Of a stretch of DNA of 60,063 nucleotides, positions 3,845-55,557 are shown one piece after another (the first letter of the stretch is position 1; every line of letters starts with the position of its first letter). The notes below the pieces were generated by a model that ran no database searches, had not been told where the DNA came from, and saw nothing but the letters and a program-made list of their open reading frames with translations. The position numbers and the translations under genes are program-made. Source of the stretch: an uncultured Puniceicoccaceae bacterium (GTDB taxonomy: Bacteria; Verrucomicrobiota; Verrucomicrobiia; Opitutales; Coraliomargaritaceae); assembly GCA_963933035.1 (NCBI GenBank), contig CAWVTP010000001.1:1-60063 (forward strand). Direction: 5' to 3'.

Positions 3845-4015
3845 ATGAAAACCGACCCGACCAACAAAACACATACTGAGAAACTTGGATTCTTTCAACG
3901 AATTGTCAAAAAAGTCGATAGCGTCATGCAGGAAAAAGCGGCTGAACAAGCCAAAAACAGTGCCTGCTGCGCCCCGAATTCTGACGACAAAGATAAGGGC
4001 AACAAATGCTGCTAG
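3845..4015 (+). CDS. small cysteine-pair protein (56 aa), not in the ORF track
   Basis: ATG at 3845, 10 nt after a GAGG. Translates as [56 protein letters not shown], with TAG at 4013-4015. Overlaps the next gene's ATG (4006) by 10 nt. Confidence 0.5.
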
Positions 4016-4959
4016 AGGCCGTCCATTACTTGGTGTATGATCTACTCTCGCTGCCGGCGGATTCGAAATTGGGCGGCCTGATTCACTTTTTCCTCTACGA
4101 CTCCATAAAAATCTTTGGATTGCTCGCGATCATGATGCTCGCCATTAGCCTGATGCGCACATGGCTCCCAGAGCAGCGACTGCGAAAATGGATGAGTCGC
4201 GGCGGCGTGAGCGGCAACTTTCTGGCGGCCGCCTTTGGGGCCATCACGCCCTTTTGTTCCTGCTCCTCAATTCCCATTTTTATTAGCTTGCTGAAAGCGG
4301 GTGTCCCCCTGGGCATCGCTTTTTCCTTCCTGATCACCTCCCCCATCATCAACGAATATCTCGTCATCCTAATGATTGGGGAATTTGGAATGGCAGTGAG
4401 TCTCGCCTATGTCTGCAGTGGCTTGCTGATCGGCACATTAGCGGGCGCGCTCCTCGGTCGACTCAAGCTGGAAACAATGCTCGAGCCCGACATGGTGGAT
4501 ACAGCCGCAGATAGCACCCAGACATCCTATACGCATTTTGGCCAACGGATGCGCTATGCGGTGGTCGAAACATGGACCATGATACGGCAAATTTGGCTTT
4601 GGATCTTAGTGGGCGTGGGTATCGGGGCCTTCATTTACAATTATATACCAGAAGAAAGCTTGCATTCTCTCATGCAGGCAACGGGTATTTTCTCGGTGCC
4701 CTTGGCCACTTTGTTGGGCATTCCCATGTACGGAAGTTGCGCGGCCATTGTGCCCGTTGCCGTCGTGCTCTTTCAAAAAGGCATCCCACTGGGAACTGCC
4801 TTGGCATTTATGATGGCAATGGCGGCTCTTAGCCTACCCGAAGCCATTATGCTACGCCGCATCATGCGCCTTAAACTCATTGCCATCTACTTTGGCCTAA
4901 CAGCGCTCGCCATCATTTTTACCGGTTACCTGCTCAATCTAATAGCACAGTGGCTCTAA
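4006..4959 (+). CDS. ArsP-like permease (COG0701/DUF318 family)
   Basis: Multi-TM protein with the [13 protein letters not shown] motif characteristic of this permease family. Sits in the ars context. Confidence 0.8.
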
Positions 4960-4978
4960 ATACATCCACATCCTCACA

Positions 4979-5431
<453 letters not shown>

Positions 5432-5436
5432 GCCTT

Positions 5437-6093
5437 ATGCAAAACAAGCTGATCGCAGAATTTATCGGGACGTATTTTTTGTACCTACTGATTGCCCTTT
5501 GCGTGGTCCCACCCGGTATCGGGGCCTTCACCCCACTGGCCGTGGGGATTGGCCTGACGGCGCTGGTCTATTCCTGTGGTCATATCTCAAAAGCTCATTT
5601 CAACCCGGCGACCACCATCACCTATCTGTGCGCGGGCACCCATGCGCCCCGAGCATTCCTACCTTTCGTGCTAATTATTTTTACGGCCGCCAGCCTCGCT
5701 GCATGGACGATGCACGCACTCCAGCCTCAAGCTTTAATTGAAGTGCAGGCCTTGGAGATTGATTGGCTGAAGGTCATCATTGCCGAGGCCCTGTTTACCT
5801 TTGCGCTGATGTGGGTGATTCTTAATGTGGCCATCGCCAAGGGTACTGCTGGCAATCAGTTTTACGGTATCTCGATCGGCGCCATTGTGACCGCGGGCGC
5901 CTATGCGGTGGGTCCGATTTCCTTTGCCGCATTCAATCCCGCCGTCACACTGGCCCTGTGCATTAACGGATTCATTCCTTGGATCGCATTTCCCGTCTAC
6001 TGCCTAGTGCAAGCGCTTGCAGCAGCGAGTGCGGGCTACGTGTTTAAAAGTATGCGCATCACGAATCCAAGCGAATATCCAGCTAAGATTTAA
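5437..6093 (+). CDS. MIP-family channel (aquaporin/aquaglyceroporin)
   Basis: Two NPA boxes (HFNPATT, AFNPAVT) and a six-TM pattern. Last gene of the ars cluster. Confidence 0.85.
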
Positions 6094-16101: not shown

Positions 16102-17325
16102 TCACGACAAAATGTCCGCTAGGGGGCGCACGCACACACCATCGACCAAACTGCAAACATGTATCTCATGCCGAAACTGCGGATACGCGCGTGGATATGC
16201 GCGATCAATAGTTTGCCTAAGAGGCTCGACAGCATCTTGCTCAACCAGCGCACCACTAGCGCCTTTATCTCCGCCACCTAGCATCCGTTCGCCTAAAACG
16301 CCCGGAACGGTACGCGCTAGATCACACATCGTTTCAAGCTCAGGTCCGCTAATTTGATACTCGTCTCGCAGCCCCAGACCATCCGCGCGAAAGTTTGCCC
16401 CCACTTGTGCAAAATCGCCCTGTTTCCAAGCTGCAATCGTAGAGTGAATTCTAGACTGCGCAGCGTACAGATAGCGCAGTAAGGGCACACAATCTGGCAT
16501 CTCTAATAGCAACATCTGCTCGGCTGCTCGATAATGCCTTTCGTCTTGAAAAAGCTCTAGAAGCGATCTGCCCAATTGCGCCTGCAGGTAGGCATTCATA
16601 GCGTCACATTGTTGACGGCGGACCTTGTAAGTCGAAACTTCTAGCCCTGCACGCTTAGTCCCAGTATCCATACAGACCACGCGAAAGCGATCAATATCGC
16701 CTCCAAATTCAAAGTGCTCAATATGCTCATTAATAGGATTAAAGTAGGTCCCCATGCCAGCCTTGGCAAAATAGATCATCACTTGATCCAGCTTCCCGCA
16801 AGGGGAGCCGATGTAGTCCACCTCCACCATCTGAGCCAAGTTCACAATATCCATTCCCGGCACCTCTCTATAGCCATTCAGCTCCAATATCGACTCAATC
16901 AAATTGAGCGATAGCGAGGCCGAACGCGACATGCCACCACCAGGAATATTTCCGAATACGATGGCATCCATACCTATCTGAATCTGATAGCCTTCACGCT
17001 TCAGTACGCTCACGGCCCCTTTGGGAAAACGCGCCCAACCAGATGCCAAAGGGTTCGCCATCGTCGCATCAGCTAATGAAAAATCCACGACGCCTTCTTC
17101 TGGCATATTTTCACTATAAATTCGAATTCTACCAGAAGTATTCGGCTTATATGCAACCCATATAAAGCGATCCGTCCCGACGCCAAATAATTCCAAATTA
17201 TTGTAATCGCCATGCTCAACTCCAAAACAAAAACGAGATGAGGTACGCCGAACCATGCCCTCACTAATATCCAAATTCAAGAGTCTTGCTTGCAAAGCAA
17301 AACGGTTAGCCACAACTGCGTCCAT
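16102..17325 (-). CDS. galK: GHMP kinase, galactokinase-like
   Basis: GNIPGGGMSRSASLS GHMP motif and a degenerate galactokinase signature FGVEHGDYNN. Last gene of the galT-galE-galK string. Confidence 0.75.
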   Translation of the reverse strand: MDAVVANRFALQARLLNLDISEGMVRRTSSRFCFGVEHGDYNNLELFGVGTDRFIWVAYKPNTSGRIRIYSENMPEEGVVDFSLADATMANPLASGWARFPKGAVSVLKREGYQIQIGMDAIVFGNIPGGGMSRSASLSLNLIESILELNGYREVPGMDIVNLAQMVEVDYIGSPCGKLDQVMIYFAKAGMGTYFNPINEHIEHFEFGGDIDRFRVVCMDTGTKRAGLEVSTYKVRRQQCDAMNAYLQAQLGRSLLELFQDERHYRAAEQMLLLEMPDCVPLLRYLYAAQSRIHSTIAAWKQGDFAQVGANFRADGLGLRDEYQISGPELETMCDLARTVPGVLGERMLGGGDKGASGALVEQDAVEPLRQTIDRAYPRAYPQFRHEIHVCSLVDGVCVRPLADILS

Positions 17326-17349
17326 ATTTCTATATAAAAATAATATCGA

Positions 17350-18342
17350 TTAGTGTTCGTAACCGTTAGGATGATCACGATGCCAATCCCACGCGCTGGA
17401 CACGATCGATTCTAAATCTGGATACTTGGGTTGCCAATTTAATTCCTGGCTGATCTTGTCGCTGGCAGCAATGAGCACAGCTGGATCTCCAGCACGACGT
17501 GCTTGCACCTCGGCAGGAATCGCATGCCCGGTTACGCGGCGGGCCAAATCGATGACTTCTTTAACCGAATACCCTTTACCATTTCCCAAATTGTACACCC
17601 GGCTAGAAGAATCAATCGCGTTGAGTGCGAGAATATGCGCCTGAGCCAAATCCACGACATGAATATAATCCCGCACACAACTGCCATCAGCGGTGGGATA
17701 ATCGTCTCCAAAGATGAGCATTTTGTCTCTTTTTTTCAAAGCAACCTGTAAAATCAAGGGTATTAGATGTAACTCTGGACTGTGATCTTCTCCGCGCTCT
17801 GGAGTCGCGCCTGCCGCATTAAAATATCGAAGAGCGGCATAATTAAAAAATGGATAAATGCGCTCCATCCAATGTAAATAACGCTCGATGATATATTTAG
17901 ACTCCCCGTAGGGACTACCCGGAATAATGCACTCATTTTCCGCAATCGGGATGGTCTGCGGACGGTCAAAGAGATTGGCTGTGGAAGACAAAATAAAGCG
18001 TGGAACTTCAAATTCGACGACTGCTTGCAATAAATTCAAAGCATTACGGACATTATCACCAAGATACAAAAATGGCGACTGCATAGACTCTCCAACCAAA
18101 GACTTGGCCGCAAAATGCATAATCGCATCTGGACGAAAGCTGCGAATGGCCGCCCGAATGGCCTCAGCATCCGCAAGATCTCCCAAGATGAACTCTGCAT
18201 CGGGATGAACTGCCGCACGATGTCCCATCGATAGATTGTCAAACACCGCCACCTGGTAGTGGCTCTGTACCAATTGCTCAACGGCGACACTGCCAATATA
18301 ACCAGCCCCGCCTGTTACTAGAACTTTCATTTTACTTTTCAT
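17350..18342 (-). CDS. galE: UDP-glucose 4-epimerase
   Basis: [10 protein letters not shown] Rossmann motif and YGESK catalytic motif; 330 aa. Confidence 0.92.
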
Positions 18343-19384
18343 TGTTCAAATAATGCTGTTCTGAACAAGCACGCAAGCGCTCGGCAGCCTGTTCCGGTGT
18401 CAAATCGCGCTGAGCATTGGCCAACATTTCATAGCCAACCATAAACTTTTTGACCTTTGCAGACCTCAATAAGGGCGGATAAAAGTGTGCATGTAACTGC
18501 CAATGCTGCTCTGCTCCAGAAATATTTGGAGCACCATGCCAGCCCATAGAATACGGAAAAGAAGTCTGAAATAAATTATCGTAGCGAGTGAGAAACCGCT
18601 TCAAAATCGACGCAAGGGAAGCGCTTTGTTGGAGACTCAAATCTCGCAAGCGCGCAACTTTTGCACGCGGCAGAAGTAGAGTTTCAAAAGGCCAGGTCGC
18701 CCAGTAGGGAACCAGTACCAGCCAATCATCATTCTCGCAAACAATGCGGGAGCCCGCCTTCGCCTCCATAGTCACATAATCATGCAATAACAAACTTTTA
18801 TTCTGGGAGAAATAAGTCGCCTGGTTGCGATCTTCTTTTTCCACTTCATTCGGCAGAAAGTCACTGGCCCAGATTTGTCCATGCGGGTGTGGATTGGAAC
18901 AGCCCATCGCAGCACCTTTATTCTCAAAAATCTGTACCCAACGATACTGATGACTCAGTTCAGCTTCCTGATCCATCCAGGTCGACACCACCGCACCAAT
19001 CGCTTGCACAGACAGCTCAGGCAGCGTCAAGTCATGACGCGGAGAGAAGCAAATTACACGGCATTCCCCCTGCACCGCTTGAGCAGTAAACAAGGGATGC
19101 GACTCGGTATCGCTTCCGAATGAACCCGAAAGCTGCGAACTCAATAGTGCAGAAAAGTCATTTTTAAATACATAGGGTCCCGTGTAATTCGGATTTACTG
19201 CCCCCCCCATACGCTCATTGCCGGGACACAAGTAACAATTCGGGTCATAGGCAAGTTTTTCCTCCAATGGCTGCGCTTCCTGCGCTCCTTGCCATGGACG
19301 CTTTGAGCGATGAGGCGATACCAAAATCCATTCTTGAGTCAGCGGGTTCAAACGCCGATGCGGCTGTTCATTAAGTAAGTTCAC
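18332..19384 (-). CDS. galT: galactose-1-phosphate uridylyltransferase
   Basis: CYLCPGNER zinc site and NPHPHGQIW (HPH) active site; 350 aa. Confidence 0.92.
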
Positions 19385-19493
19385 TGCGAGCTATCTAATT
19401 GGATAAAACATTCAACACTTTATGAATATAGCACAGAAAACCTTTGATTTTTAGTCAAAAACAGATCTTATTTTTAATAAATTGAGTCAAAAA

Positions 19494-20633
19494 ATGTATA
19501 GAATCGCACTCATCGTGGAAACTTCGCTGGCCTCAGGACGTGAAATTGTGGCAGGAGTGGCCAAGTATTTGGAACAAAAAAGCGATTGGTCAGTAACCCA
19601 CATGCTGGCCCCCATGGGTCATATACATCCACAGCAACTTAACAATTGGCAAGGTGATGGCATTATTGTTCGCATTACTGAGCCCGCATTACTCGACTTA
19701 ATTGTCAGTAAACAACTACCGACTGTTGATGTCCTAGGAAATGTGTCAGAGAGTCCATTTCCACTTGTTCATAATGATCAACATGCCATCGGTCGCTCGG
19801 TGGCGGAACATTTTACCCGCAGCGCTCATGTACACTTTGGCTATATCGGCTTAAAGAATGAAATGTGGTCAAAGATGCGAGAAGCGGGCTTCAAAAATAC
19901 ACTCAAACAACAAAGGCAGGCCCCTTCCAGTTTTTATCTGGAGCCGAATAACACATCCCAAAATTCACTCACTTATGATTTTGAGGCACTCAAGAAATGG
20001 ATTTCACAAAGACCCACACCGTGCGGGCTGATGGTGTGCAGTGATCAATTTGCTCCCATCGTCTTTGAAGCCTGCCATGCCGTGCAGAGAAAAATCCCCG
20101 AACAAATAAGTATCGTAGGCGTAGACAATGACCCTCCATTTTATAAGTTATGCCGCCCTCAACTTAGCAGCGTAGAACCCTATCATGCCAAAGTCGGCTT
20201 CCAAGCAGCGAAAATCTTAGATCAACAAATCCAGGGAACTTCACATAACAAAAAAGAGTATACAATTCAGCAGCACAGTTTACATGTTCGGGTATCCAGC
20301 GATTGGCTCGCCATTGAAGACACCCACATCAGAAAAGCCCTGCGTATTATACAAAAAAATGCTTGTAATGGGATCCAAGTCGAGCAAATCGCACAAGAAG
20401 CTGGTATGTCACGCAGCACATTACAAAGACGCTTCAGGACACACTTACAGCGTAGCGTGCACCAAATCATATTAGACCAGAAGATCAAACAGGCATGTAA
20501 TCTACTCGGTGACCGCTCACTTTCGATCAGCCAAGTTGCAGAACAAAGCGGGCTGGGCAGCCAGGAATACCTAAACTATATTTTCAAAAAGCACTTAACA
20601 ATGACGCCACTGCGATATCGATCGAACCACTAA
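19494..20633 (+). CDS. XylR-like regulator (periplasmic-binding-fold sensor + AraC HTH)
   Basis: N-terminal PBP-like domain and C-terminal AraC-type HTH (IAQEAGMSRSTLQRRF, QVAEQSGLGSQEYLNYIFKKH). Divergent from galT. ATG 19494 preferred over TTG 19482. Confidence 0.8.
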   Translation: MYRIALIVETSLASGREIVAGVAKYLEQKSDWSVTHMLAPMGHIHPQQLNNWQGDGIIVRITEPALLDLIVSKQLPTVDVLGNVSESPFPLVHNDQHAIGRSVAEHFTRSAHVHFGYIGLKNEMWSKMREAGFKNTLKQQRQAPSSFYLEPNNTSQNSLTYDFEALKKWISQRPTPCGLMVCSDQFAPIVFEACHAVQRKIPEQISIVGVDNDPPFYKLCRPQLSSVEPYHAKVGFQAAKILDQQIQGTSHNKKEYTIQQHSLHVRVSSDWLAIEDTHIRKALRIIQKNACNGIQVEQIAQEAGMSRSTLQRRFRTHLQRSVHQIILDQKIKQACNLLGDRSLSISQVAEQSGLGSQEYLNYIFKKHLTMTPLRYRSNH

Positions 20634-20642
20634 GCCTGCGCA

Positions 20643-21587
20643 TCAAATGAGCCCCTTGAGTAAAGCTGGAAGCCGTTCGATACAGCCAAGAATATGAGCG
20701 CGCGCGTAGTTGAGTTCTACCGGGTTCTCTCCAAAGAAAATAGACCATGCCGGCAGTTGATCCCAACTTTCATACTCAATGGCTTGCACTGTTTCAAAAG
20801 GTGCCTCACAACCACCATAACGCACAATCATATCAGCTAACTGGACGACGGCGGCCAATTGCCCTCCATTTTGTGAGTGTTCGGGTGCATACTGATGTAA
20901 CACCGCATCGACGATCGATTCCGGCATAGAATTCAGCTCAAGGTAGAGCGCACCCAACTGCGCATGATGCCATCCGTAGCTGGCTACTTCCGCCTGCGAG
21001 AAAGCTTCGCGCGTAAGTGCCTGCAATGCGACTCTCGATCGTAACTGATTCGGAAACTCACGAAACATTAACAATTTCCCTACGTCCTTCAACAGGCCCG
21101 CAATATAAAATTCATCGGAATCGGATGTCGTGGAGGCTAAGGTTGACAACTCCTTACTGAGGATCGCAACACCAATGCTGTGGCGCCAGAAATCGGTCCA
21201 ATTAATGTCTAAACCTCTTTGAACATCGCCACTCATTGCCTCAATATCGTCAATTACTTGAGTCGTCATGGCTAATTGACGAATTTGTTTCAGCCCTAAA
21301 TAAAAGATGGCCTCCTCGATACTGGTCACCCGCATCGATAAGCCAGAAAAAACCGAATTCACTAACCTGAGCAAGCGAGTTGTCAGCGACAAATCGCGAC
21401 TGATTACATCCGCAATTTCACTCACCGAACCACTAGCATCGGCTGTTAAGCGGTTTAGATTGTCATTGATTCGACTTAAGGAAGCAATCGGCCTGCAGTC
21501 TTGAATCTTTTTATACAGCGTATCAAAGTCGCTGATTTCACTGGCGCAAAAATTATACGCTAACTGATCTATAAGACTATTTACCAT
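20643..21587 (-). CDS. HDOD domain protein
   Basis: FWRHSIGVAILSKEL, AGLLKDVGKLLM and WHHAQLGALYL are typical of the HDOD (HD-related output domain) fold. Start overlaps the upstream stop by 11 nt. Confidence 0.75.
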   Translation of the reverse strand: MVNSLIDQLAYNFCASEISDFDTLYKKIQDCRPIASLSRINDNLNRLTADASGSVSEIADVISRDLSLTTRLLRLVNSVFSGLSMRVTSIEEAIFYLGLKQIRQLAMTTQVIDDIEAMSGDVQRGLDINWTDFWRHSIGVAILSKELSTLASTTSDSDEFYIAGLLKDVGKLLMFREFPNQLRSRVALQALTREAFSQAEVASYGWHHAQLGALYLELNSMPESIVDAVLHQYAPEHSQNGGQLAAVVQLADMIVRYGGCEAPFETVQAIEYESWDQLPAWSIFFGENPVELNYARAHILGCIERLPALLKGLI

Positions 21588-22272
21588 GTAAGTGTGATAA
21601 TTTCTCCTGAATTATAGTATCACACTCATTGATTTTACTTTGGGCAAGCTTCTTTCGATCATACAATAACTGCTTCTTGACATCCCATACGCGTTTAATG
21701 CGCTCGTTTCGATCCTGAAACTGGTCGCTAACACGGGCAACAACTGGGCTAAAACTTTGTTTAGAAGCATTTCCTCGGGGAGAAAACATCAAACCAGCCA
21801 CAAAGCACGCCATTCCAGCCACAACATAGACGAAAACTGGCCGATCGCTCACAATAAAACCAATATAAAGCATCAAAATCCCTACAAAATATAAAACTAA
21901 GTATAGATGCCCCCCGCGTTTGCCTGAGCTTTTAGAGCCCGGTTTTTTCATGGCAATAACCTGACGAAGTTCTGCCTCCATTTCGGATAATTTTTTTTCT
22001 GAATCAGCCAGCTCCTGCATAACTTCATCGTAAATCGCTTTTTCCTGTTCCAGCCGTTGATTCAAAAGCTCCACCTCTTGCTTAAGCTTTGCGTCTTCTT
22101 TAGCTCGAAAATCAGCAACCTTAACGCGTAAAGACTCATAATCCTTAGCATCCATTGCCAAGGCATAAGCATCCACCAAGGAACGCAAATTACTTGCTAT
22201 CAAATGCCCATCATTCGAACGCTCGAAATATTCAGGATGTTGTTGTAGAAATTTTTTTAATTCTTGGTTCAT
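21577..22272 (-). CDS. coiled-coil membrane protein with two TM helices
   Basis: About 115 aa of E/K/L-rich heptad-like sequence, then LYLVLYFVGILMLYIGFIV and VFVYVVAGMACFVAGLMF, then a ~70-aa charged tail. No family recognised. Confidence 0.6.
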   Translation of the reverse strand: MNQELKKFLQQHPEYFERSNDGHLIASNLRSLVDAYALAMDAKDYESLRVKVADFRAKEDAKLKQEVELLNQRLEQEKAIYDEVMQELADSEKKLSEMEAELRQVIAMKKPGSKSSGKRGGHLYLVLYFVGILMLYIGFIVSDRPVFVYVVAGMACFVAGLMFSPRGNASKQSFSPVVARVSDQFQDRNERIKRVWDVKKQLLYDRKKLAQSKINECDTIIQEKLSHLHGK

Positions 22273-22275
22273 TCT

Positions 22276-23595
22276 TCAGCGACCAAAGACCTCGTTGAGT
22301 ACCTTCTCGGAAAAAGGTTGAATCGGTGATAACTGGCTTAGTAAATCACGATGGCGTCGTGATGGGACTTGTTTACTTAATGCATGCAGCAACTCTATTT
22401 TATCCTTGTAGCCAGCATGGCATAAAGGCTTTCGTTTTTTAGCTTGATGCAATACATCCGCCCGCAATTTTGTATTTAAACGAACACTCCATTCATCTGT
22501 ACTTTTAGCTGTTTCATAAGCTCGGTCCATTAGTGTTGGATCTTGCTGCAGCCAATCAATCGCATCTTGAGCTTCGCCTTTACCAATCAAAAGCTGCAAA
22601 GCCTCACGAGAACATTGCGCCTGCATAGCTGCTGCATGGAGCCAGCGGCGTTGCTTAGCTGAAAACTGAGCCAAGGAATCTGCATGCCGCGACTGGCGCA
22701 GATTTGTTAAAGTCCCCATGAAATCATCTTGCGCTAATAAGGCTTTGATTCTGGCGGGGACACCCTCCGTTTCTTCATAGAGCAAATCCACTAGATCACG
22801 ATCTGTATGCCCCAGCTCACTCAACCACTCCTGACAATCGCTGTAGCTCAGCCTTAGCAGCTCGATCTGTCGAAGTGCCGCAGGATGCACCTGCCAACTA
22901 TCTGCAAGGTCTCCTTGCTCCCAAGCTAAAGTTCCAGTTTGCAAATAAACACTTCCTTTGATGACTGTCGACTGCTTGAGTGACTCAAAAGCTTTGTAAA
23001 GCCCCGCTCCAATCCAACGCTTAATATTTTCAGGATAATGTGCAAACTGATCAAAATAAAAAAGAATCCGTGGGCAGGCGTTAGCTCCCAGCATAAAATA
23101 ATCTTTCTGTAACAAATCAGTCAGATTCTGTGCTAATCTCTGTGCCAATTCAACCTCTTCGGAATGAGACAAGGTCTTTACCGCCAATACGTCCGTGTAG
23201 GCCGCCCCATCCTCTCCATACAACTCACTCGCAGATGGCTCCGTGATGCTCGCCGTTGAGAACAAACGACTATTGTCCGGCTGCACATCGACTCGCGACA
23301 TCTTTATGCCACCGGGCCTCAAGCGCTTGATCGATTCCGACAAAAGATTAGAAAATGCAATCGTAGACGAACTTTGAGGGATTCCTTTATAAGCGATTAT
23401 AATGGTTTCGCCAACCCCAATTAGCTGGTGACGAATCAAATTTGTAAAATGCTCACACAATGCTGTTTTACCCACCCCCGTAATTCCGTGCACCAAAATA
23501 ACAGGAGAAAAATTAGGATTGATCTCATTGAATGTCTCTTCTTGCAAACGATCTAAGGCCAACAAACGACCGTATAATTGATTGTTGGACTTCAT
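22276..23595 (-). CDS. STAND/AAA_16-like P-loop NTPase (439 aa)
   Basis: Walker A GITGVGKT (nt 23464-23487), Walker-B-like RILFYFDQF, and helical-module patterns IELLRLSYSDCQEWL and EETEGVPARIKALL. No recognisable repeat sensor domain. Confidence 0.65.
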   Translation of the reverse strand: MKSNNQLYGRLLALDRLQEETFNEINPNFSPVILVHGITGVGKTALCEHFTNLIRHQLIGVGETIIIAYKGIPQSSSTIAFSNLLSESIKRLRPGGIKMSRVDVQPDNSRLFSTASITEPSASELYGEDGAAYTDVLAVKTLSHSEEVELAQRLAQNLTDLLQKDYFMLGANACPRILFYFDQFAHYPENIKRWIGAGLYKAFESLKQSTVIKGSVYLQTGTLAWEQGDLADSWQVHPAALRQIELLRLSYSDCQEWLSELGHTDRDLVDLLYEETEGVPARIKALLAQDDFMGTLTNLRQSRHADSLAQFSAKQRRWLHAAAMQAQCSREALQLLIGKGEAQDAIDWLQQDPTLMDRAYETAKSTDEWSVRLNTKLRADVLHQAKKRKPLCHAGYKDKIELLHALSKQVPSRRHRDLLSQLSPIQPFSEKVLNEVFGR

Positions 23596-23825
23596 ATTTT
23601 GGACAGTAATCTAAACACAGTGTTTACTACGACTGAGTCAAATGGATCTTTAGTACAAAAATCACTATTTTTTAAAAATCCTCAACACGCTCAAATCGGT
23701 TTTTTTGACCTCATACGTCGGCATCGAAGCATCCTGTGTAGAGGCCCAATTCAAATTTAGAGCAGCTCTTAAATTCAGCCACAGGCTGCAGCCGCAATAA
23801 GCTTATGCGCTTACAATAGTCAGCG

Positions 23826-41788: not shown

Positions 41789-42373
41789 CTAGCGATCAGC
41801 AGAAGTCCGTAAAGCCATCGGCGCCTCTAAAATTTCTTTATAGATGACAGCTCGCCGCGCCAACAGCGGATTTTTCAAAGATTTCCGCAAAGACGACTGC
41901 AACGCTCCCAGTGTACGCTTAGCGGTTATTGAAGGTTCTTCAGACGAGCCTGGCCGCGCGACTCCCTTTTGTAAAGCGGCCGCCTGCGCTTTGGTGGCCT
42001 CAATACGCCGCAACTGAGCTTCCATCAGCGTCTCGTAAGTCGAAGTCGGTGCCGGCGATACTGACGGCTGACGGGGCATCACAACTGGCTCTGACTCAAT
42101 CCTCGGCTTCGGGGCCTGCTGCTGCGGTTCTGCTTGCGGATTGGTAGGTTGGGCCGCCGCCGGCTCACCCGTGGCTTGCCGCCGCTCCTGAATCTTGCGG
42201 CGGATTTGGTCGCGAATTTCCTGCTCACGCGCCAAGATCTCCGGATCCGGCCGCCCGGGACGGTGCCCAGGAGCCGGATCTTCTTTCTGCGAGCCCTTCG
42301 AAAAGAACTGACTCAACAGATAGACCGCGCCGACGATGATCGGGACCAAATATTCTAGTAACTCACCCATCAA
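41789..42373 (-). CDS. single-TM protein with Pro/Gln/Arg-rich disordered tail
   Basis: N-terminal TM LEYLVPIIVGAVYLLSQFF followed by low-complexity sequence. Last gene of the nfeD-floA string. Confidence 0.5.
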   Translation of the reverse strand: MMGELLEYLVPIIVGAVYLLSQFFSKGSQKEDPAPGHRPGRPDPEILAREQEIRDQIRRKIQERRQATGEPAAAQPTNPQAEPQQQAPKPRIESEPVVMPRQPSVSPAPTSTYETLMEAQLRRIEATKAQAAALQKGVARPGSSEEPSITAKRTLGALQSSLRKSLKNPLLARRAVIYKEILEAPMALRTSADR

Positions 42374-42415: not shown

Positions 42416-43453
42416 TTATGCTGGATTGTCCTCTCCCTTCGAGATGGAATCACGCATATCGGTATCGGCCTTAATGTTATTCAGACGATAGTAATCCATT
42501 ACCCCCAAATTACCGCTGCGGAAAGCTTCTGCCAGCGCCAAGGGCACTTGCGCTTCCGCTTCCACCACTTTAGCGTTCATTTCTTCGACCTTCGCCTTCA
42601 TTTCTTGCTCCAGCGCAACCGCAGCCGCCCGCCGCATTTCGGCCTTAGCTTGCGCCACATTTTTGTCAGCCTCAGCTTGTGACTCTTGCAACTTGGCGCC
42701 GATATTTTCGCCGACGTCAACGTCCGCAATGTCGATGGATAAAATCTCGAATGCGGTACCCACATCCAATCCACGCTCCAGCACCACCTTAGAAATCGTA
42801 TCTGGCGATTCCAAAACTGTCTTGTAAGAATCAGCCGATCCAATGGTGGTCACGATGCCCTCTCCCACACGAGCAATAATCGTCTCTTCCAAAGCACTGC
42901 CTACATAATTGTCCAAATTAGAACGAACTGTCACTCGAGCACGCGCTTTTACCTGAATCCCGTCTTTAGCCACCCCATCAATGGTGGCACGTCCACCGGA
43001 ACTGGCAGGACACTCAATCACCTTAGGGTTGATCGACGTGCGCACCGCCTCCAATACCGACTTGCCGGTCCCCTTGGTGGCCAAATCAATCGCACAGGCA
43101 CGTTGCCAATTTAAAGTAATGTTGGCCTTATCCGCAGCGATCAAAGATTGCACCGTCTGAATCACATTACCCTCCGCCAAGTAGTGCGCTTCCAAATCGT
43201 TCGCATCCATAGTGATGCCCGCTTTGACCGAGGTAATCCGCGCATCCACCACTAGGGAGGCCGGCACACCCCGTAAGCGCATGGCAATCAAAGTGGGGAA
43301 GCCTACCGGAGCACCCGATAGCAAAGCGCGCAACCATATGCTGAAAAAGTTGATAATCACGAAGGCCACCACCAAAAGAAATAATGCGACAACTGCGAAC
43401 AAGGCGATCTGCCATGTGGCGACACCGAGAGAGAAAAAAGAAGGTAAACTCAT
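42416..43453 (-). CDS. floA: flotillin-like protein FloA (UPF0365/YqfA family, SPFH domain)
   Basis: N-terminal TM, then [21 protein letters not shown] and an SPFH core with an A/E-rich C-terminal coiled coil. 4-nt overlap with the upstream NfeD gene. Confidence 0.85.
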
Positions 43454-43914
43454 GATTTTTTAATGATTAGTCCAAAATTGTTGTGGTCGATGACTTCAAT
43501 GCGAACACCTTGATCAATGTAACCGTCCCGAGAATAGGCATCATAAACTTGGGAAGCAATCAACACTTTTCCACTCGGATTGAGGGCTGTCAGACTTTCT
43601 CCGCCTTGTCCCAACAACTGAGCTTGGGGCTGTGATGGCGAAGACCCCGCCCTCAGACTCGTTTTGAGCATGAAACCTTTCGCTAAAGGCGACCGCACCC
43701 AATATTTGAACCCGAATATAACAAGAAATAAATTGCTCACCAAAAGTCCGGCCCCCATTAGAACGGCTGTCAGCCCACCAAACAACTGATAAGTATGCCA
43801 AACCGCATACGAGCCCAAGCCAAAAGCCAAAATCCCAAGGATGCCGCCCGGCAATAAGAGCTCGCAAAAGACCAAAAACCAGGTGGCCAGGATGAGCGCA
43901 ACTAAGAGCATCAT
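43450..43914 (-). CDS. NfeD-like membrane protein (short form, C-terminal OB domain)
   Basis: Three TM helices followed by the [15 protein letters not shown]....[16 protein letters not shown] beta-barrel pattern. Confidence 0.75.
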
Positions 43915-45350
43915 GCCGCAGGCGCCTCCACTACAACCAGTCCAAAGTCGCTCTCGGACACCACACGTACCGCTGCCCCATGTGCGATCGGCCCCAGCTC
44001 GCTGCGAGCTTCGTAACGCTGGCCAGCCAGCTCGATGCGGCCACTCGGGTACAGATCGGTGACGGCATGACCCAGCTGCCCCACCAATGAAGCTCTCGAC
44101 GAAGACGTGGTGACTGCGGCTGGTTCTGTCGAGCCCACCACCCGCTCTAAAACCAATAAGCGCTCAAATAAAGAGCCCTGGAAAAAGCGTCCCAATAAAA
44201 CCGCCCCCACAATAGCCATCAGCAATGCGAGCAGCAAATTGAGCGCTGGATCAAACAAGAGATCTGCATTGAAATCAAACCCCTCGTTGGGCCACAGATC
44301 GACCATCGCCCACAGCAGTGACCCAAAAATGAATGCCAATCCACTCAGGGCTGCAATCAGTGTGCCAGGAAAGAAGAAGAGCTCGAGCAAGACCAACAAC
44401 ACCCCTAAAATAAAAAATAAAATCACCTCGTTGCCCGCCAGTCCTGCGATGTACTGACTCGCAAAAAAGATCGCTATACAAGCAATCCCCAAACCACCAA
44501 ATAGACCAAATCCGGGTGTTTTGAATTCCAAGAATAAAAACAGTAAACCGATCCCCATTAATGCGGGCGCAAAGGTATTCATCCATTTTGCCAATGATTC
44601 TGAATAAGTAATTTCGTAGTAGCGAACCGTGTGGTTACCAGCTCCAAATCGTGCATCCAACAGCGCATCCATCGACTCGTAAATACCACTTGCTAGCAAT
44701 GCTTGAGGCGGCTCCCCATAGCGCTGCATCGCCTCTTTAGCCGTCAGCGTCAACAGCTCGCCTGCAGGCTTTATCACCTCATCTCCGATCTTAAACTCAA
44801 AATCGGCATCCAACATGGCGCGCAAGACATCTGCACGATACGGAATGTCCTCGGTTAAGGCACGTAGATTTGCCCGCAAATAACTCTCAATCTTCATGGC
44901 CGCCGTTTCTGGAACCTCGGCACCACCGCTCTGAATGACTGCCGAAGCTCCCATCTTTCCAGTGGGCGCAAAATAAATCGACTCGGTAGCCGCCGCAATA
45001 AAGGACCCAGCCGAGATGGCATCTACATTAACATAGGTTGCCGTTTGCCCCTCAAAACGAGCCAACATTTCCATCATTTCCAAAGTTACATCCAAACGCC
45101 CACCAGGGGTGTCCATATCCAGAATCACACAGTCAACCTGATCGCTGATCGCCTGCTTCAATGCCCTCCGTAAAATAAACAAGTTTGCTTTGTCGATCGC
45201 TTCATTGATTGGAATCACCACTACAGAAGTTGGGGCAGACTGCAGCGCGGTTGCGACGGCAGCATTGTCCAAACTCGGCCGCTCGAGTGCGTCGGCAGTG
45301 ACTACCGTGAGACACAATAGGACCAGTAGGGGTATAGAGCGCATGATCAT
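43911..45350 (-). CDS. NfeD-family membrane-bound ClpP-class serine protease
   Basis: Periplasmic ClpP-like domain (ILDMDTPGG, SAGSFIA), TM block and C-terminal NfeD OB domain (GRIELAGQRYEARS). ATG 45350 or 45344 preferred over the ORF start at 45386. Confidence 0.8.
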   Translation of the reverse strand: MIMRSIPLLVLLCLTVVTADALERPSLDNAAVATALQSAPTSVVVIPINEAIDKANLFILRRALKQAISDQVDCVILDMDTPGGRLDVTLEMMEMLARFEGQTATYVNVDAISAGSFIAAATESIYFAPTGKMGASAVIQSGGAEVPETAAMKIESYLRANLRALTEDIPYRADVLRAMLDADFEFKIGDEVIKPAGELLTLTAKEAMQRYGEPPQALLASGIYESMDALLDARFGAGNHTVRYYEITYSESLAKWMNTFAPALMGIGLLFLFLEFKTPGFGLFGGLGIACIAIFFASQYIAGLAGNEVILFFILGVLLVLLELFFFPGTLIAALSGLAFIFGSLLWAMVDLWPNEGFDFNADLLFDPALNLLLALLMAIVGAVLLGRFFQGSLFERLLVLERVVGSTEPAAVTTSSSRASLVGQLGHAVTDLYPSGRIELAGQRYEARSELGPIAHGAAVRVVSESDFGLVVVEAPAA

Positions 45351-45521
45351 ACCAAAAAAACTTAAACGGATATATGTGAATTGCAAGCTATCAGCCCGAT
45401 GTCCGCAAGTTGATTCTTGGAGCTATTTAGCCCCAAAAATGAACACATTCCTGCGCAAAGTTTTTTTAATTTTTTATTGCGCTCCAGTGTCACGAACTCC
45501 AAATATGCAGACTGCTGACAC

Positions 45522-52329: not shown

Positions 52330-53427
52330 TTAATCTTTTGATTCGTTGTGCAGCGCTGCATGCATGTAGAAATAAGCTTCGGCGTTGATGGATTTTATTC
52401 CGTCGAGCCAGCTTAGATCGCGGCCGTTGAGGCTGGCGGCTTTGAGTGCTTCGAGTTGCGCTGGGGTTTGCTCGTAGCGGACGAGGTCTTTGCCATTTTT
52501 TATAGCCGTCGTGAGGTAAGCTGTTCTGGCTGCGAGGGTGCGCTGGTCGTTTGGTTTAAAGTTTGGCCATGTGAGGTGCCCCTTAAGTTTTCCAAATCCA
52601 TCCAACAACAAATCTGTATCTTTGTAGGCCTGTTGTATCTTAGGCTTGGTGGCGATGATACCGATGGAGGCATTGAATGTGTCTTCGAGGGATTCATCTC
52701 TGCTAACTTTGCGGCCGAGTGTTTCTTCGCGGTAGGCGGCCTCTTGCTCCTGCACTTCGTTGTAGGTCTTGGCAACGGCTGCGAAATCTTCGGCATGCTC
52801 GAAGAGAATGCCCACATCGAAGAGCTGTTTGGCGACCTGCATGACTTCGCCGACGGTGCCATCGTCTTTCCTCAGCGGCACTCCGGTGGTTGTCGGCGCA
52901 AAGGCCGTGAGCTTGTCGCCAAGGAGGCTTTCAATTGTGGGCAGCTCGACTTCGATCTCTTCTTCGGGTGTTAAGAAGGATGTTTGGATTGGTTTCTTAG
53001 TGCAGCCGTGGACGATGTCTTGCTCCTGCACCACATCGAGTAGCACCGCACTCTTGCTTCTGGTGTCGAAGGGAGAGTTGAAGAAGAATTTGAAATGCCG
53101 CCGCTGTGGAAGGCCCCGTGCGCCGCGATCATCTTCTTCGTGGCCGATGAAGGGAGTTGTCTGCCCGATTTGGGCGACGACGCGCTCCAGTTCGGCATCT
53201 CCGGCGGGGCTGACTATATCGATGTCAATCGAGAGCCGCTGGATCTTTGGTAGGTGGAGCATCAAGCTGGTGCCACCCTTGAAGATGAAGGGTAGCCCGC
53301 TGCGGCTGAGCTGCCCAAGCAGGGTCAGGGCGTAGATTGACTTTTCCAGCAGGGCTGGATCGCAGTTTCCCAAGCCCTTTCGCTGCTGGTTAATCCAGCC
53401 TTTCTCGTAAACTTCAGGGTGAAACAT
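52330..53427 (-). CDS. nucleotidyltransferase AbiEii/AbiGii toxin family (DUF1814)
   Basis: FKGGTSLMLHL...RLSIDIDIV nucleotidyltransferase motif; 365 aa. Follows an AbiEi-like gene. Confidence 0.85.
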   Translation of the reverse strand: MFHPEVYEKGWINQQRKGLGNCDPALLEKSIYALTLLGQLSRSGLPFIFKGGTSLMLHLPKIQRLSIDIDIVSPAGDAELERVVAQIGQTTPFIGHEEDDRGARGLPQRRHFKFFFNSPFDTRSKSAVLLDVVQEQDIVHGCTKKPIQTSFLTPEEEIEVELPTIESLLGDKLTAFAPTTTGVPLRKDDGTVGEVMQVAKQLFDVGILFEHAEDFAAVAKTYNEVQEQEAAYREETLGRKVSRDESLEDTFNASIGIIATKPKIQQAYKDTDLLLDGFGKLKGHLTWPNFKPNDQRTLAARTAYLTTAIKNGKDLVRYEQTPAQLEALKAASLNGRDLSWLDGIKSINAEAYFYMHAALHNESKD

Positions 53428-53468
53428 GGGGCATATTTATTGAGTTAACTATTGTCACTATAGCGCGT

Positions 53469-54188: not shown

Positions 54189-54213
54189 CGTGCTAGTACG
54201 ATATTTACCAGTG

Positions 54214-54754
54214 TTATGATTCTGAATTTAACAGAGCCTCTTCAATCAGGTTCTTCGCGTTAACGGTAAGCCGTTTCGTTTCAAAGATCTCTAAGATACG
54301 TTTACAATGCTCAGCCAAGTGGAATGCACAAGCGTATAATTCCAAGTCCTCAGCCTTTAGGCCCGATCCAGTTTTGGCTGCGGCGAAACTCACCTGGAGT
54401 CTTGGTGCATTCACCACCTCGGACATCTTTGAGCAGGATCTCATGCAGCTCTTTGATCAGACGAGTGGAAATCGGAAGCTCAGCAATACGCTGGAGGCCG
54501 TATTCGAGAGCTCGGACGTAGTTGGCCACTTCGCGCACGTCGGAAACAGGCTCGTCATCTTCGTCTTCTTGCTCGAAGAGTGCGAGTTGCCCCATATCCG
54601 CATGGGTGTCTTCAATGCGCGAACTCAGGATCGCCTCGCGTCGTAAATAAGGCCGTATCAGTAGGTGCGGATTTGGGAGAAGTTGACCTGCGCCGGAGAG
54701 TTCGCCCAATGCCTGATCGGCCTCGGAAATCAGCCGAATCAAGTTCCAGTCCAA
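54214..54754 (-). pseudogene. fic: decayed Fic-family gene (Fic_N part intact, frameshift, HPFxxGNGR core missing)
   Basis: ORF 54350..54754 encodes a Fic_N-like segment (LLPNPHLLIRPYLRREAILSSRIEDT...PGEFRRSQNWIG) and then stops. A second frame (54214..54444) adds only ~50 aa. No HPFxxGNGR motif is present in any frame. Confidence 0.7.
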
Positions 54755-55459: not shown

Positions 55460-55557
55460 TTCTGTAGTCCTATTGTCGCTTAAATCCTGGCTCGTAATTA
55501 CTCCGCAAAGGATAACATTAACCTTTACGAAAATCTAACGGCCCATAAAAAGGAGGC

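What the first reader, a model, noticed from the sequence alone, without database searches (positions are those of the whole stretch)
20643..23595. STAND-like NTPase + coiled-coil 2-TM protein + HDOD protein: compact uncharacterised operon wedged between two sugar-metabolism units
This is my best candidate for an undescribed system. Three minus-strand genes are packed tightly, with a 3-nt gap at 22273-22275 and an 11-nt overlap at 21577-21587. (i) The first is a 439-aa P-loop NTPase. It has Walker A GITGVGKT, Walker-B-like RILFYFDQF, and the helical module seen in AAA_16/STAND NTPases (IELLRLSYSDCQEWL; EETEGVPARIKALL, resembling the GNPLFL-type helix). Its ~130-aa helical C-terminus has no TPR/WD/LRR sensor repeats that I can see. 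(ii) The second is a 231-aa protein with a ~115-aa coiled coil, two adjacent TM helices and a charged tail. (iii) The third is a 314-aa HDOD-domain protein. By eye the block is AT-richer than its flanks. It interrupts two functionally unrelated units that each carry their own XylR/AraC regulator (galTEK on the left, gmd-fcl on the right), which is what an acquired module looks like. A nucleotide-switch NTPase coupled to a small membrane-spanning partner is a recurrent layout of abortive-infection and conflict systems. To my knowledge an HDOD partner has not been described in that context, so alternatively this is a novel signalling module.
Basis: partly seen in the sequence, partly recalled or inferred. 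Interest (0 to 1): 0.7.

Follow-up and report, generated by a model that had tools for sequence, protein, structure and literature searches.

The report
Motility-regulon NTPase–HDOD operon, not defence
The three genes are a vertically inherited operon of Opitutales bacteria that elsewhere sits inside flagellar and chemotaxis gene clusters; it encodes a two-piece membrane-anchored ATPase switch plus a non-catalytic HDOD adaptor, which points to an undescribed motility regulator and not to an acquired anti-phage system.

Summary
All three minus-strand ORFs, their 3-nt gap, their 11-nt overlap and the quoted motifs are real. The composition and "acquired island" claims do not hold.

- **NTPase:** its fold is AAA+ of the ORC/Cdc6–STAND type (nucleotide-binding domain, lid, winged helix).
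- **231-aa protein:** it is the detached C-terminal half of the NTPase. In at least 50 related protein clusters the two are one polypeptide: NTPase, winged helix, winged helix, coiled coil, two TM helices, coiled coil.
- **Conservation:** the trio is colinear in all 19 Opitutales/Puniceicoccaceae loci recovered.
- **Context:** nine of those loci have flagellin-flbT-flaF immediately downstream. Six have cheW or an MCP gene immediately upstream.
- **Fused relatives:** two of six sampled also lie in flagellar/chemotaxis clusters beside HDOD genes.
- **Promoter:** a σ28-like motif (TAAAG-N14-GYCGTWR) lies 31 nt before the window's NTPase start (1 match, 0.02 expected). It is conserved in front of the operon in relatives and also precedes cheW genes.
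- **Defence:** no defence-profile hits. The real defence islet is at 52–60 kb.

Best reading: a late-class motility/chemotaxis accessory module. The specific mechanism is inferred, not shown.

The parts
23627..23652 (-). σ28-like promoter: TAAAG (-35), 14-nt spacer, GTCGTAG (-10). It ends 31 nt before the NTPase ATG.
   Evidence: It is the only match in the 60-kb window, with 0.02 expected. The same motif sits at the same place in L001-L009, L012, L013, L017, L024 and L027. It is the only conserved block in the intergenic alignment of the window clade. The same motif precedes cheW in L014, L017 (identical -10 GTCGTAG), L082 and L102. The layout matches the published σ28 promoter, TCTAAAG-N14-GCCGATAA (PMC12784957).
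23653..23675 (-). Conserved A-rich/TGTGATT block directly upstream of the -35 element (AAAAAATAGTGATTTTTGTAC). It may be an UP-like element or a regulator site.
   Evidence: Conserved in the window, L001 and L003, and recognisable in L012, while the rest of the intergenic region is not conserved.
22276..23595 (-). AAA+ (ORC/Cdc6–STAND-like) P-loop NTPase, 439 aa: nucleotide-binding domain with a disordered insert at residues 94-139, helical lid, winged helix and C-terminal helices.
   Evidence: Pfam AAA_16 at threshold. Invariant Walker A, Walker B, GxP and RRWLHA motifs. AlphaFold model pLDDT 70. Foldseek hits to CED-4, ORC4, Cdc6, NRC2 and Avs3 at E 7e-8 to 1e-5.
21577..22272 (-). Detached C-terminal half of the NTPase, 231 aa: winged-helix-like N-terminal domain (hPEYF motif), coiled coil, TM hairpin (122-142 and 147-166, both ends cytoplasmic) and a C-terminal helix.
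   Evidence: It aligns to residues 399-565 of the fused P0051 (E = 5e-14) and 426-591 of P0100 (E = 2e-12). The window NTPase and middle protein hit consecutive parts of a single ORF in L018, L020, L021, L101 and L102. Fifty of 162 family representatives are fusions. Fused model. Topology.
20643..21587 (-). Stand-alone HDOD protein, 314 aa, with a conserved C-terminal extension of about 80 aa. The HD metal dyad is not conserved, so it is predicted to be non-catalytic.
   Evidence: Pfam HDOD E = 7e-44. It is the best-conserved gene of the trio (44-55% identity against 28-37% for the NTPase). The HD position reads KD, QD, HD, HE or YG across orthologues. More than 420 orthologue loci were found in metagenomes.

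Best explanation
The block is one operon driven by a σ28-type (late flagellar class) promoter.

**Components.** Genes 1 and 2 together encode a single functional protein that has been split in this lineage. It is an inner-membrane-anchored AAA+ NTPase of the ORC/Cdc6–STAND type: nucleotide-binding domain, lid, winged helix, second winged helix, coiled coil, TM hairpin, coiled coil. All soluble parts face the cytoplasm. Gene 3 encodes a non-catalytic HDOD protein.

**Origin.** The module is vertically inherited in Opitutales/Puniceicoccaceae (Verrucomicrobiota) and belongs to the flagellar/chemotaxis gene set. In the window's clade it has moved away from the flagellin locus but has kept its promoter.

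**Proposed mechanism.**
1. The NTPase docks on its membrane-anchor half.
2. Nucleotide binding or exchange drives oligomerisation at the membrane, as in ORC and STAND proteins.
3. This platform binds or releases the HDOD adaptor.
4. The HDOD adaptor then acts by protein-protein contact on chemotaxis signalling or flagellar motor output.

**Shown:** gene structure, fold class, the split/fusion relationship, conserved synteny, flagellar/chemotaxis context, the conserved promoter motif, and loss of the HD catalytic dyad.

**Inferred:** σ28 dependence, NTPase–anchor–HDOD physical interactions, oligomerisation, and the target of the HDOD protein.

I put about 0.75 on 'motility/chemotaxis-regulon accessory module' and about 0.3 on the specific recruit-and-release mechanism.
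For: 1. **Colinear trio.** It is found in all 19 distinct loci, down to 28% NTPase identity, all from Opitutales, Puniceicoccaceae, Oceanipulchritudo or Verrucomicrobia MAGs.
2. **Flagellar context.** Flagellin-flbT-flaF lies directly downstream in L002, L004, L009, L012, L013, L017, L022, L024 and L027. The run flgG/A/H/I/N/K/L-cheW lies directly upstream in L002, L012 and L024. cheW-mcp lies upstream in L014, L017 and L025. CheD and a σ54 response regulator lie downstream in L017 and L027.
3. **Fusion evidence.** Fifty family representatives are single polypeptides covering the NTPase, the middle protein and the TM region.
4. **Fused forms beside HDOD genes.** L018 has the fused gene followed by HDOD. 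L101 and L102/L103 have mcp-fused NTPase-cheD-HDOD-HDOD-…-cheW within a flg cluster.
5. **Promoter.** TAAAG-N14-GYCGTWR occurs once in the window against 0.02 expected. It is conserved in front of the operon across relatives and is the only conserved intergenic block. It also precedes cheW, HDOD orthologues (11 of 64 upstream regions against 0.7% of background windows), HDOD paralogues, CheY-domain proteins and a CheX-like ORF. The -35 element and spacer are identical to the published σ28 fliC promoter.
6. **Fold.**
7. **HDOD precedents.** HDOD proteins affect swimming without catalysis in other bacteria: PSPTO_4229 has a che-like fitness profile and depends on R84/R85; SadB is an adaptor and needs no ligand binding; GsmR, Cj0248 and PFL_0554/5871 also affect motility.
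8. **Not an island.** Housekeeping neighbours, no compositional boundary, and no defence-profile hits.
Against:
- The -10 element in the marine clade (GYCGTWR) has T where the σ28 consensus GCCGATAA has the flipped-out A at -11. The sigma factor could therefore be a different one.
- Flagellin genes, the classic σ28 target, carry σ54-type promoters here, so the positive control I first chose failed.
- Three of six fused relatives (L019-L021) have neither HDOD nor motility genes nearby.
- Most HDOD orthologues (L028-L100) have no NTPase partner, so the HDOD protein does not need the NTPase.
- No interaction, nucleotide or phenotype data exist.
Confidence: 0.6

Rival explanations
1. Spatial organiser. 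The membrane-anchored NTPase, with HDOD as a client, is a landmark or positioning system for the chemoreceptor array or the flagellum. It would be analogous to ParC/ParP, PpfA, FlhF/FlhG/HubP or TipN/TipF, and would not modulate signalling output.
For: The operon lies directly after cheW or mcp in six loci and after mcp in L102. A coiled coil plus a 2-TM anchor with no periplasmic domain suits a scaffold. Positioning systems for arrays and flagella typically use a nucleotide switch and are encoded inside che or flagellar clusters (established knowledge of those systems).
Against: Known positioning ATPases and GTPases are of the ParA/MinD or SRP class, not AAA+/STAND. Late-class (σ28-like) expression fits array positioning but not flagellar placement. 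Nothing here addresses localisation.
Confidence: 0.2
2. Membrane-tethered gene-expression control. The tandem winged-helix domains bind DNA or a regulator. The module would then control late flagellar gene expression, for example flagellin through FlbT/FlaF or an anti-sigma-like checkpoint. HDOD would act as a SadB-like proteolysis adaptor.
For: There are two winged-helix domains, and the closest folds are the DNA-binding proteins ORC/Cdc6 and DnaA. The operon is adjacent to flagellin-flbT-flaF in nine loci. SadB is an HDOD adaptor for AmrZ degradation.
Against: Winged helices in STAND and ORC NOD modules mostly serve nucleotide-dependent conformational switching. No HTH family hit was found. 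In the window clade the operon is no longer next to flagellin.
Confidence: 0.1
3. Generic signalling module with no dedicated motility role in the window's lineage. After relocation next to sugar-metabolism regulators it would serve another output, or be a relic in a non-motile organism.
For: The window clade (window, L001, L003, L011) has the trio away from any motility gene. Three fused relatives are in non-motility contexts.
Against: The σ28-like promoter is the only conserved intergenic block within the window clade. All catalytic and structural motifs remain invariant. Proteins are 67-96% identical among clade members with intact reading frames.
Confidence: 0.07
4. One reading: an acquired abortive-infection or conflict system in which a STAND NTPase senses invasion and the 2-TM protein damages the membrane.
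For: The fold is STAND-like, with Avs3 and NLRs among the Foldseek hits. There are weak sub-threshold PADLOC hits on family members: PDC-S27 on the P-loop only, and RTasSLATT at 7.5e-4 on the TM region of P0048.
Against: There are no PADLOC hits for the window's NTPase or HDOD protein, no sensor repeats and no effector domain. The 2-TM protein is the NTPase's own anchor, with a loop of about 5 aa. Synteny is strict and vertical, within flagellar clusters and housekeeping neighbourhoods. There is no compositional boundary. The genuine defence genes of the window lie elsewhere, at 52-60 kb.
Confidence: 0.03

Closest known systems
STAND NTPases (AAA_16 / NB-ARC / NACHT; for example CED-4, plant NLRs, bacterial Avs, MalT)
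   Same: P-loop nucleotide-binding domain, helical lid and winged-helix module. Walker A, an hhhhD Walker B, a TGR-like sensor-1 position and a GxP motif (ETEGVP). The best Foldseek hit is CED-4.
   Different: It has no C-terminal TPR/WD/LRR sensor and no N-terminal effector. Pfam STAND families other than AAA_16 are below threshold. It is tethered to the membrane by a coiled coil and TM hairpin, here on a separate polypeptide. It is encoded in motility clusters, not defence islands.
ORC/Cdc6 and archaeal ATPase_2 (PF01637, PABY2304) AAA+ proteins
   Same: The overall AAA+ plus lid plus winged-helix architecture. They dominate the Foldseek lists for both models. The fused relatives P0051 and P0058 hit ATPase_2.
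   Different: TIGR02928 scores 14.5 bits against a cutoff of 181. The protein is membrane-anchored, has no replication context, and has a second winged helix followed by a coiled coil and TM hairpin.
HDOD proteins that influence motility: PSPTO_4229 (P. syringae), SadB (Pseudomonas), GsmR (Xanthomonas), Cj0248 (C. jejuni)
   Same: The HDOD domain, a link to flagellar motility, and action apparently through protein-protein contacts and not hydrolysis.
   Different: None of these is reported with an AAA+/STAND partner or inside a flagellar cluster under a σ28-type promoter. SadB carries a YbaK-like domain and GsmR a receiver domain. The protein here is stand-alone with its own conserved C-terminal extension. 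Direct orthology to these proteins was not tested.
Nucleotide-switch organisers of flagella and chemoreceptor arrays (FlhF/FlhG, ParC/ParP, PpfA, TipN/TipF)
   Same: They are encoded within flagellar or che clusters and combine an NTPase with a membrane or coiled-coil anchor. TipF is a degenerate c-di-GMP-family domain protein, as HDOD is a degenerate HD-GYP relative (own knowledge; analogy only).
   Different: They belong to different NTPase classes (SIMIBI/ParA versus AAA+). There is no sequence or fold relationship.
Tmn / KAP-type transmembrane NTPase defence proteins
   Same: A P-loop NTPase joined to TM helices (PMC13001434, listed).
   Different: No PADLOC hit to Tmn or KAP models. The fold class, context and conservation pattern are different.

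Membership tests
STAND NTPase superfamily | P-loop nucleotide-binding domain with Walker A and Walker B, followed by a helical lid and a winged helix (NOD module) | tested here: met
   Invariant GxxGxGKT and hhhhD. The model shows nucleotide-binding domain, lid and winged helix. Foldseek hits CED-4, NRC2, Avs3 and Sr35 at E of 1e-5 or better.
STAND NTPase superfamily | Significant match to a curated STAND profile (AAA_16, NB-ARC, NACHT, nSTAND1-6) | tested here: inconclusive
   AAA_16 scores 32.6 bits, exactly the gathering cutoff. NACHT, nSTAND6 and NPHP3_N are below their cutoffs. Relatives give sub-threshold NB-ARC, NACHT and nSTAND hits.
STAND NTPase superfamily | Multidomain layout with C-terminal sensor repeats and/or an N-terminal effector | tested here: not met
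   No repeat or effector domain by Pfam. The C-terminus is a winged helix plus helices. The continuation in fused forms is winged helix, coiled coil and two TM helices.
ORC/Cdc6 initiator family | Match to the family model TIGR02928 / Cdc6 profiles | tested here: not met
   14.5 bits against a cutoff of 181.3. The PDB sequence search matches the P-loop only. There is fold-level similarity only.
HDOD (PF08668) | Profile match above the curated threshold | tested here: met
   150.2 bits against a cutoff of 22.9, covering 196 of 196 profile positions.
Catalytic HD / HD-GYP phosphohydrolases | Conserved H…HD…D metal-binding residues | tested here: not met
   The HD position is KD in the window and QD, HD, HE or YG in orthologues. 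The first His is replaced by Gln in L017 and L018. The HD profile scores 18.2 bits, below its cutoff of 22.
Known anti-phage defence systems (PADLOC-DB 2.0) | Any component matching a defence-system profile | tested here: not met
   Zero families for the NTPase and HDOD protein. The middle protein gives only E of 0.13 or worse. Ten family members give only weak hits confined to the P-loop or TM region.
Known anti-phage defence systems | Patchy distribution in variable, defence-rich neighbourhoods | tested here: not met
   The trio is syntenic in all relatives. Its neighbours are flagellar/che genes or housekeeping genes.
σ28 (FliA) late flagellar regulon | Promoter TAAA(G)-N14/15-GCCGATAA upstream of the operon | tested here: inconclusive
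   The -35 CTAAAG and the 14-nt spacer are exact. The -10 is GTCGTAGT, matching 3 of 8 positions of GCCGATAA, with T at -11. The lineage variant GYCGTTA/GYCGTAG is shared with cheW promoters. Canonical GCCGATA occurs in front of HDOD orthologues in other lineages.
σ28 (FliA) late flagellar regulon | Dependence on FliA; fliA present in the genome | not testable with these tools
SLATT-type 2-TM effector | Match to SLATT profiles | tested here: not met
   No Pfam SLATT hit for the middle protein at E of 1 or better. The only hit is a 17-bit RTasSLATT match on the TM region of the distant P0048.

The most novel reading that the evidence does not exclude
A previously undescribed family of inner-membrane-anchored ORC/STAND-type AAA+ switches, split into two genes in Puniceicoccaceae, works with HDOD adaptors as a dedicated late-class regulator of chemotaxis signalling or flagellar motor output in Verrucomicrobiota. 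This would be the first STAND-like NTPase assigned to the motility apparatus and not to immunity, apoptosis or transcription. It would also give the enigmatic HDOD domain a defined partner.
Probability: 0.35. Interest if true: 0.7.

Novelty: new variant of a known kind. Interest (0 to 1): 0.55.

Why it matters
HDOD is a widespread signalling domain whose mode of action is unknown, although mutants in several bacteria change motility. Here an HDOD orthologue group is tied to flagellar and chemotaxis clusters by gene order, gene fusion patterns and a shared promoter motif. In some lineages it is also tied to a specific membrane-anchored AAA+/STAND-like NTPase. That yields a concrete, testable partner and a regulon for HDOD. 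It extends the known roles of STAND/ORC-like ATPases beyond defence and replication. It adds conserved accessory genes to the barely studied flagellar systems of Verrucomicrobiota. It is also a caution for defence-system mining: the layout 'STAND NTPase plus small 2-TM protein' is not in itself evidence of abortive infection.

Tried and rejected
- **PDB sequence search** with the NTPase profile found only P-loop-local matches.
- **NCBIfam** gave nothing useful.
- **Word-indexed protein search with the fused-form alignment** returned almost nothing beyond P0051. The metagenome scan with that alignment failed for lack of a conserved stretch.
- **Flagellin as a σ28 positive control:** I expected flagellin genes to carry the same σ28-like motif. 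They do not; they have σ54-type TGGCA-N6-TTGC promoters in 8 of 9 loci. cheW promoters served as the control instead.
- **Requiring the NTPase next to every HDOD orthologue:** rejected. Most orthologues (L028-L100) stand alone, so HDOD is the older and broader component.
- **Composition or codon usage as evidence of horizontal transfer:** rejected.
- **SLATT, Tmn or KAP affinities of the TM part:** only a 17-bit hit on one distant relative.
- **Flagellar status of the window's own genome:** could not be determined.
- **Taxonomy** of assemblies GCA_028285755.1, GCA_964593675.1 and GCA_050331595.1 could not be looked up.


Full report
**1. Observation**

- 22276-23595 (439 aa)
- 21577-22272 (231 aa)
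- 20643-21587 (314 aa)

They are separated by a 3-nt gap and an 11-nt overlap. Pfam gives AAA_16 for the first at exactly the gathering score (32.6 bits). The second has no significant family. The third has a full-length HDOD match (E = 7e-44).

The quoted motifs are real and matter. Walker A (G37, G40, G42, K43, T44), Walker B (F179, F181, D182, F184), ETEGVP (E274, T276, G278, P280) and an RRWLHA motif are invariant in 12 homologues down to 28% identity. The flanks are also as described: a GHMP kinase, a GalE-like epimerase, GalT and a XylR-like regulator on one side, and a XylR-like regulator, gmd and an fcl-like gene on the other.

The composition claim does not hold as a boundary. The trio is 41-47% GC against a window gene mean of 50.3% (sd 3.2). 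Both flanking regulators, gmd and galE are equally low, and codon usage is unremarkable.

**2. The NTPase and the 2-TM protein are two halves of one protein**

The NTPase model (pLDDT 70) has a P-loop domain with a disordered insert at residues 94-139, a helical lid and a winged helix. Foldseek against the PDB returns CED-4, ORC subunits, Cdc6/Orc1, NRC2, Avs3 and Sr35 at E of 7e-8 to 1e-5. The fold is therefore AAA+ at the ORC/Cdc6–STAND boundary.

A profile search of 1.84 billion representative proteins found 342 relatives. About 20 are ~430-aa proteins like the window's. A larger tier is 620-746 aa long. Those long proteins continue past the NTPase core into four elements:
- an hPEYF motif
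- a coiled coil
- two TM helices
- a charged helical tail

The window's 231-aa protein aligns to that continuation: P0051 residues 399-565 (E = 5e-14) and P0100 residues 426-591 (E = 2e-12). The window's NTPase and middle protein also hit consecutive segments of single ORFs in five loci. Of 162 family representatives, 50 are NTPase + middle-like + TM fusions, and 19 more are NTPase + TM.

The model of the fused P0051 (pLDDT 81.6) has this layout:
- nucleotide-binding domain: 1-230
- lid: 231-274
- first winged helix: 278-346
- second winged helix: 388-437, which corresponds to the N-terminus of the window's middle protein
- long helix: 444-503
- TM helices: 518-540 and 545-562
- long helix: 569-627

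In the window protein the TM hairpin (122-142 and 147-166) has a loop of about 5 residues and positively charged flanks. Both ends are therefore cytoplasmic and there is no periplasmic sensor. The '2-TM partner' is an anchor, not an independent effector.

**3. Distribution and synteny**

The word-indexed search found only 14 NTPase clusters, all unnamed metagenome proteins. The genome scan found the gene only in Opitutales, Puniceicoccaceae, Oceanipulchritudo and 'Verrucomicrobia' MAGs.

In every locus long enough to judge, the three genes are colinear. That covers 19 distinct loci, down to 28% NTPase identity. HDOD is the best-conserved gene of the three, at 44-55% identity against 28-37% for the NTPase.

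**4. Context is flagellar and chemotactic**

- Flagellin-flbT-flaF follows the HDOD gene directly in L002, L004, L009, L012, L013, L017, L022, L024 and L027.
- The run flgG-A-H-I-x-N-K-L-cheW precedes the NTPase in L002, L012 and L024.
- cheW-mcp precedes it in L014, L017 and L025.
- L017 additionally has a CheY-like response regulator plus a second HDOD gene, CheD, and a σ54 response-regulator activator nearby.

Fused relatives repeat the theme. In L102/L103 (GCA_050331595.1) the order is flgA-H-I-J-N-K-L-fliW-csrA-mcp-[fused NTPase]-cheD-HDOD-HDOD-x-cheW. L101 has the same core. L018 has the fused gene followed 10 nt later by HDOD, in a housekeeping context. Three other fused loci (L019-L021) have neither HDOD nor motility genes nearby.

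Searching from the HDOD side found more than 420 metagenome loci. In most of the best 80 (L028-L100) the orthologue stands without the NTPase. Some of these lie near a σ54 response regulator, a CheY-like gene or cheW. HDOD is therefore the older and broader component, and the NTPase is a lineage-restricted partner.

**5. The window clade**

In the window and its close relatives (67-96% identity; L001, L003, L011) the trio lies beside a XylR-like regulator, gmd, fcl and a PSCyt2/PSD1 gene instead of flagellin.

In L003 the HDOD gene is followed directly by 4HBT-LspA-DksA. In the window, DksA and LspA lie at 13.9-15.3 kb, on the far side of the gal cassette. The galKET-XylR cassette (16.1-20.6 kb) is therefore the indel between relatives, not the trio.

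The rest of the window is housekeeping: Rho, IleRS, LspA, PanC/PanE, Dxr, UppS, CdsA, RecN, FloA/NfeD and others. A genuine defence islet lies at 52-60 kb: AbiEii plus DUF6577, type I HsdR and Abi_2, with elevated GC3.

**6. A conserved σ28-like promoter**

Thirty-one nucleotides upstream of the NTPase ATG lies TAAAGATCCATTTGACTCAGTCGTAG (23627-23652, minus strand). The pattern TAAAG-N14-GYCGTWR occurs once in the 60-kb window, against 0.02 expected; 2 of 100 shuffles gave at least one match.

The same motif sits immediately upstream of the NTPase gene in L001-L009, L012, L013, L017, L024 and L027. Within the window clade it is the only conserved block of the intergenic region, together with an adjacent A-rich/TGTGATT block.

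Its -35 element and 14-nt spacer equal those of the P. aeruginosa σ28 fliC promoter, TCTAAAG-N14-GCCGATAA (PMC12784957). The -10 element differs: it is GYCGTTA or GYCGTAG, with T at -11.

The same lineage variant precedes cheW in L014 and L017 (the latter with an identical GTCGTAG), and related forms precede cheW in L082 and L102. Canonical TAAAG-N14-GCCGATA forms precede stand-alone HDOD orthologues: 11 of 64 upstream regions against 0.7% of background windows. They also precede HDOD paralogues, CheY-domain proteins and a CheX-like ORF.

Flagellin genes instead carry σ54-type promoters in 8 of 9 loci. The trio is therefore its own transcription unit.

I read the motif as the promoter of a late motility regulon that the window's operon has retained despite relocation. 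The identity of the sigma factor is inferred.

**7. The HDOD protein is probably non-catalytic**

The HD dyad position reads KD in the window and QD, HD, HE or YG in orthologues. The first histidine is also replaced in some. The HD profile is below threshold.

The literature gives precedents for HDOD proteins acting on motility through protein contacts:
- PSPTO_4229, a 273-aa stand-alone HDOD protein, has a che-like fitness profile. Overexpression abolishes swimming, and this depends on R84/R85 (PMC11813219).
- SadB is an adaptor for AmrZ proteolysis and needs no pocket ligand (PMC12075610).
- GsmR, Cj0248 and PFL_0554/5871 also affect swimming (PMC11004494).

No paper retrieved combines HDOD with a STAND-type NTPase.

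**8. Defence reading**

- PADLOC finds nothing for the NTPase or the HDOD protein. It finds only noise for the middle protein.
- Ten family members give only weak hits confined to the P-loop or the TM region.
- There are no sensor repeats and no effector domain.
- Inheritance is vertical, and neighbourhoods are motility or housekeeping.

I consider the abortive-infection interpretation essentially refuted.

**9. Mechanism**

Best supported, at about 0.75: the operon is an accessory module of the flagellar/chemotaxis regulon. It encodes a membrane-anchored AAA+ nucleotide switch in two pieces, plus an HDOD adaptor.

The specific model has about 0.3 confidence. Nucleotide-dependent assembly of the NTPase on its anchor at the inner membrane would bind or release HDOD. 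HDOD would then modulate chemotaxis signalling or motor output by protein-protein contact.

The rivals are:
- a positioning or landmark role for chemoreceptor arrays or flagella (0.2)
- membrane-tethered control of late gene expression or proteolysis (0.1)
- a non-motility role in the relocated window clade (0.07)
- defence (0.03)

The main open points are:
- whether the window's genome has flagella and fliA
- which sigma factor reads the motif
- all physical interactions

**10. Verdict**

The defence and 'acquired island' interpretation is not. What is there is an undescribed, conserved motility-cluster module of Verrucomicrobiota that gives HDOD a candidate partner. It is of moderate interest (0.55), and I rate it a new variant of a known kind.

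Noticed in passing
window 52330-59887: A genuine defence-like islet: AbiEii toxin (52330-53427, minus strand) with a DUF6577 partner (53469-54188, minus strand), a type I restriction HsdR (55558-58659; GC3 0.70, z = 2.5) and an Abi_2 protein (58979-59887). This region, not the trio, looks like the acquired or variable part of the window.
   Followed up: partly
window 16102-20633, compared with L003 10959-14015: The galK/galE/galT plus XylR-like cassette is absent in relative L003, where the HDOD gene abuts 4HBT-LspA-DksA. The gal unit is therefore the insertion/deletion between relatives.
   Followed up: partly
L002 11160, L004 3760, L009 3200, L012 13097, L017 13054, L022 1785, L024 8004, L027 3532: Flagellin genes in Opitutales clusters carry σ54-type TGGCA-N6-TTGC elements only about 27 nt before the called start codon, so those starts are probably miscalled. 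Together with FlbT/FlaF and a σ54 response regulator nearby, this resembles Caulobacter-style flagellin control.
   Followed up: partly
L002 8001-8040; L006 3814-3870: The called starts of P0011 and P0012 lie upstream of, or across, the σ28-like promoter motif. Their N-terminal extensions in the alignment are likely annotation artefacts.
   Followed up: partly
L017 5171-6547 (minus strand); L028, L039, L084, L092; L101 6089-6943; L102 10518-11366: A second HDOD paralogue group ('HDOD2', about 280 aa) recurs next to the orthologue. It is often divergently transcribed with its own σ28-like motif. In L017 it shares an operon with a CheY-like receiver, and in L101 and L102 it follows cheD.
   Followed up: partly
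L041 ~1800 (minus strand), L062 ~4200 (minus strand), L065 ~6780 (minus strand); L051 ~1660, L063 ~8465, L098 ~8420 (minus strand): The σ28-like motif also precedes uncharacterised TPR-like proteins of about 592 aa (MSHAQYQRLLQ…) and 130-145-aa proteins beginning MSNRLLSLL…. These are candidate further members of the same regulon.
   Followed up: no
window 22276-23595, residues 94-139 of the NTPase: A ~45-residue insert with low confidence (pLDDT below 50) and poor conservation lies between the first strands of the P-loop domain. It contains one invariant Tyr-x3-Gly (Y126, G130).
   Followed up: no
window 42416-45386 (minus strand): A FloA flotillin-like gene with two NfeD-family genes, forming a membrane-microdomain operon.
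   Followed up: no
window 4006-6093: An ArsP-type permease, a low-molecular-weight phosphatase (ArsC-like) and a MIP channel in a row. This is probably an arsenic/antimonite resistance cluster.
   Followed up: no
window 41816-41840 (minus strand): A looser σ28-like match (TAAAGAAATTTTAGAGGCGCCGATG) lies inside the 3' end of ORF 41789-42373 with no gene downstream. It is probably a chance match.
   Followed up: partly
L006 3288-3845 (also L007, L008): Two small conserved ORFs (59 and 84 aa, no Pfam hits) lie between sdhB and the trio in one marine lineage.
   Followed up: no
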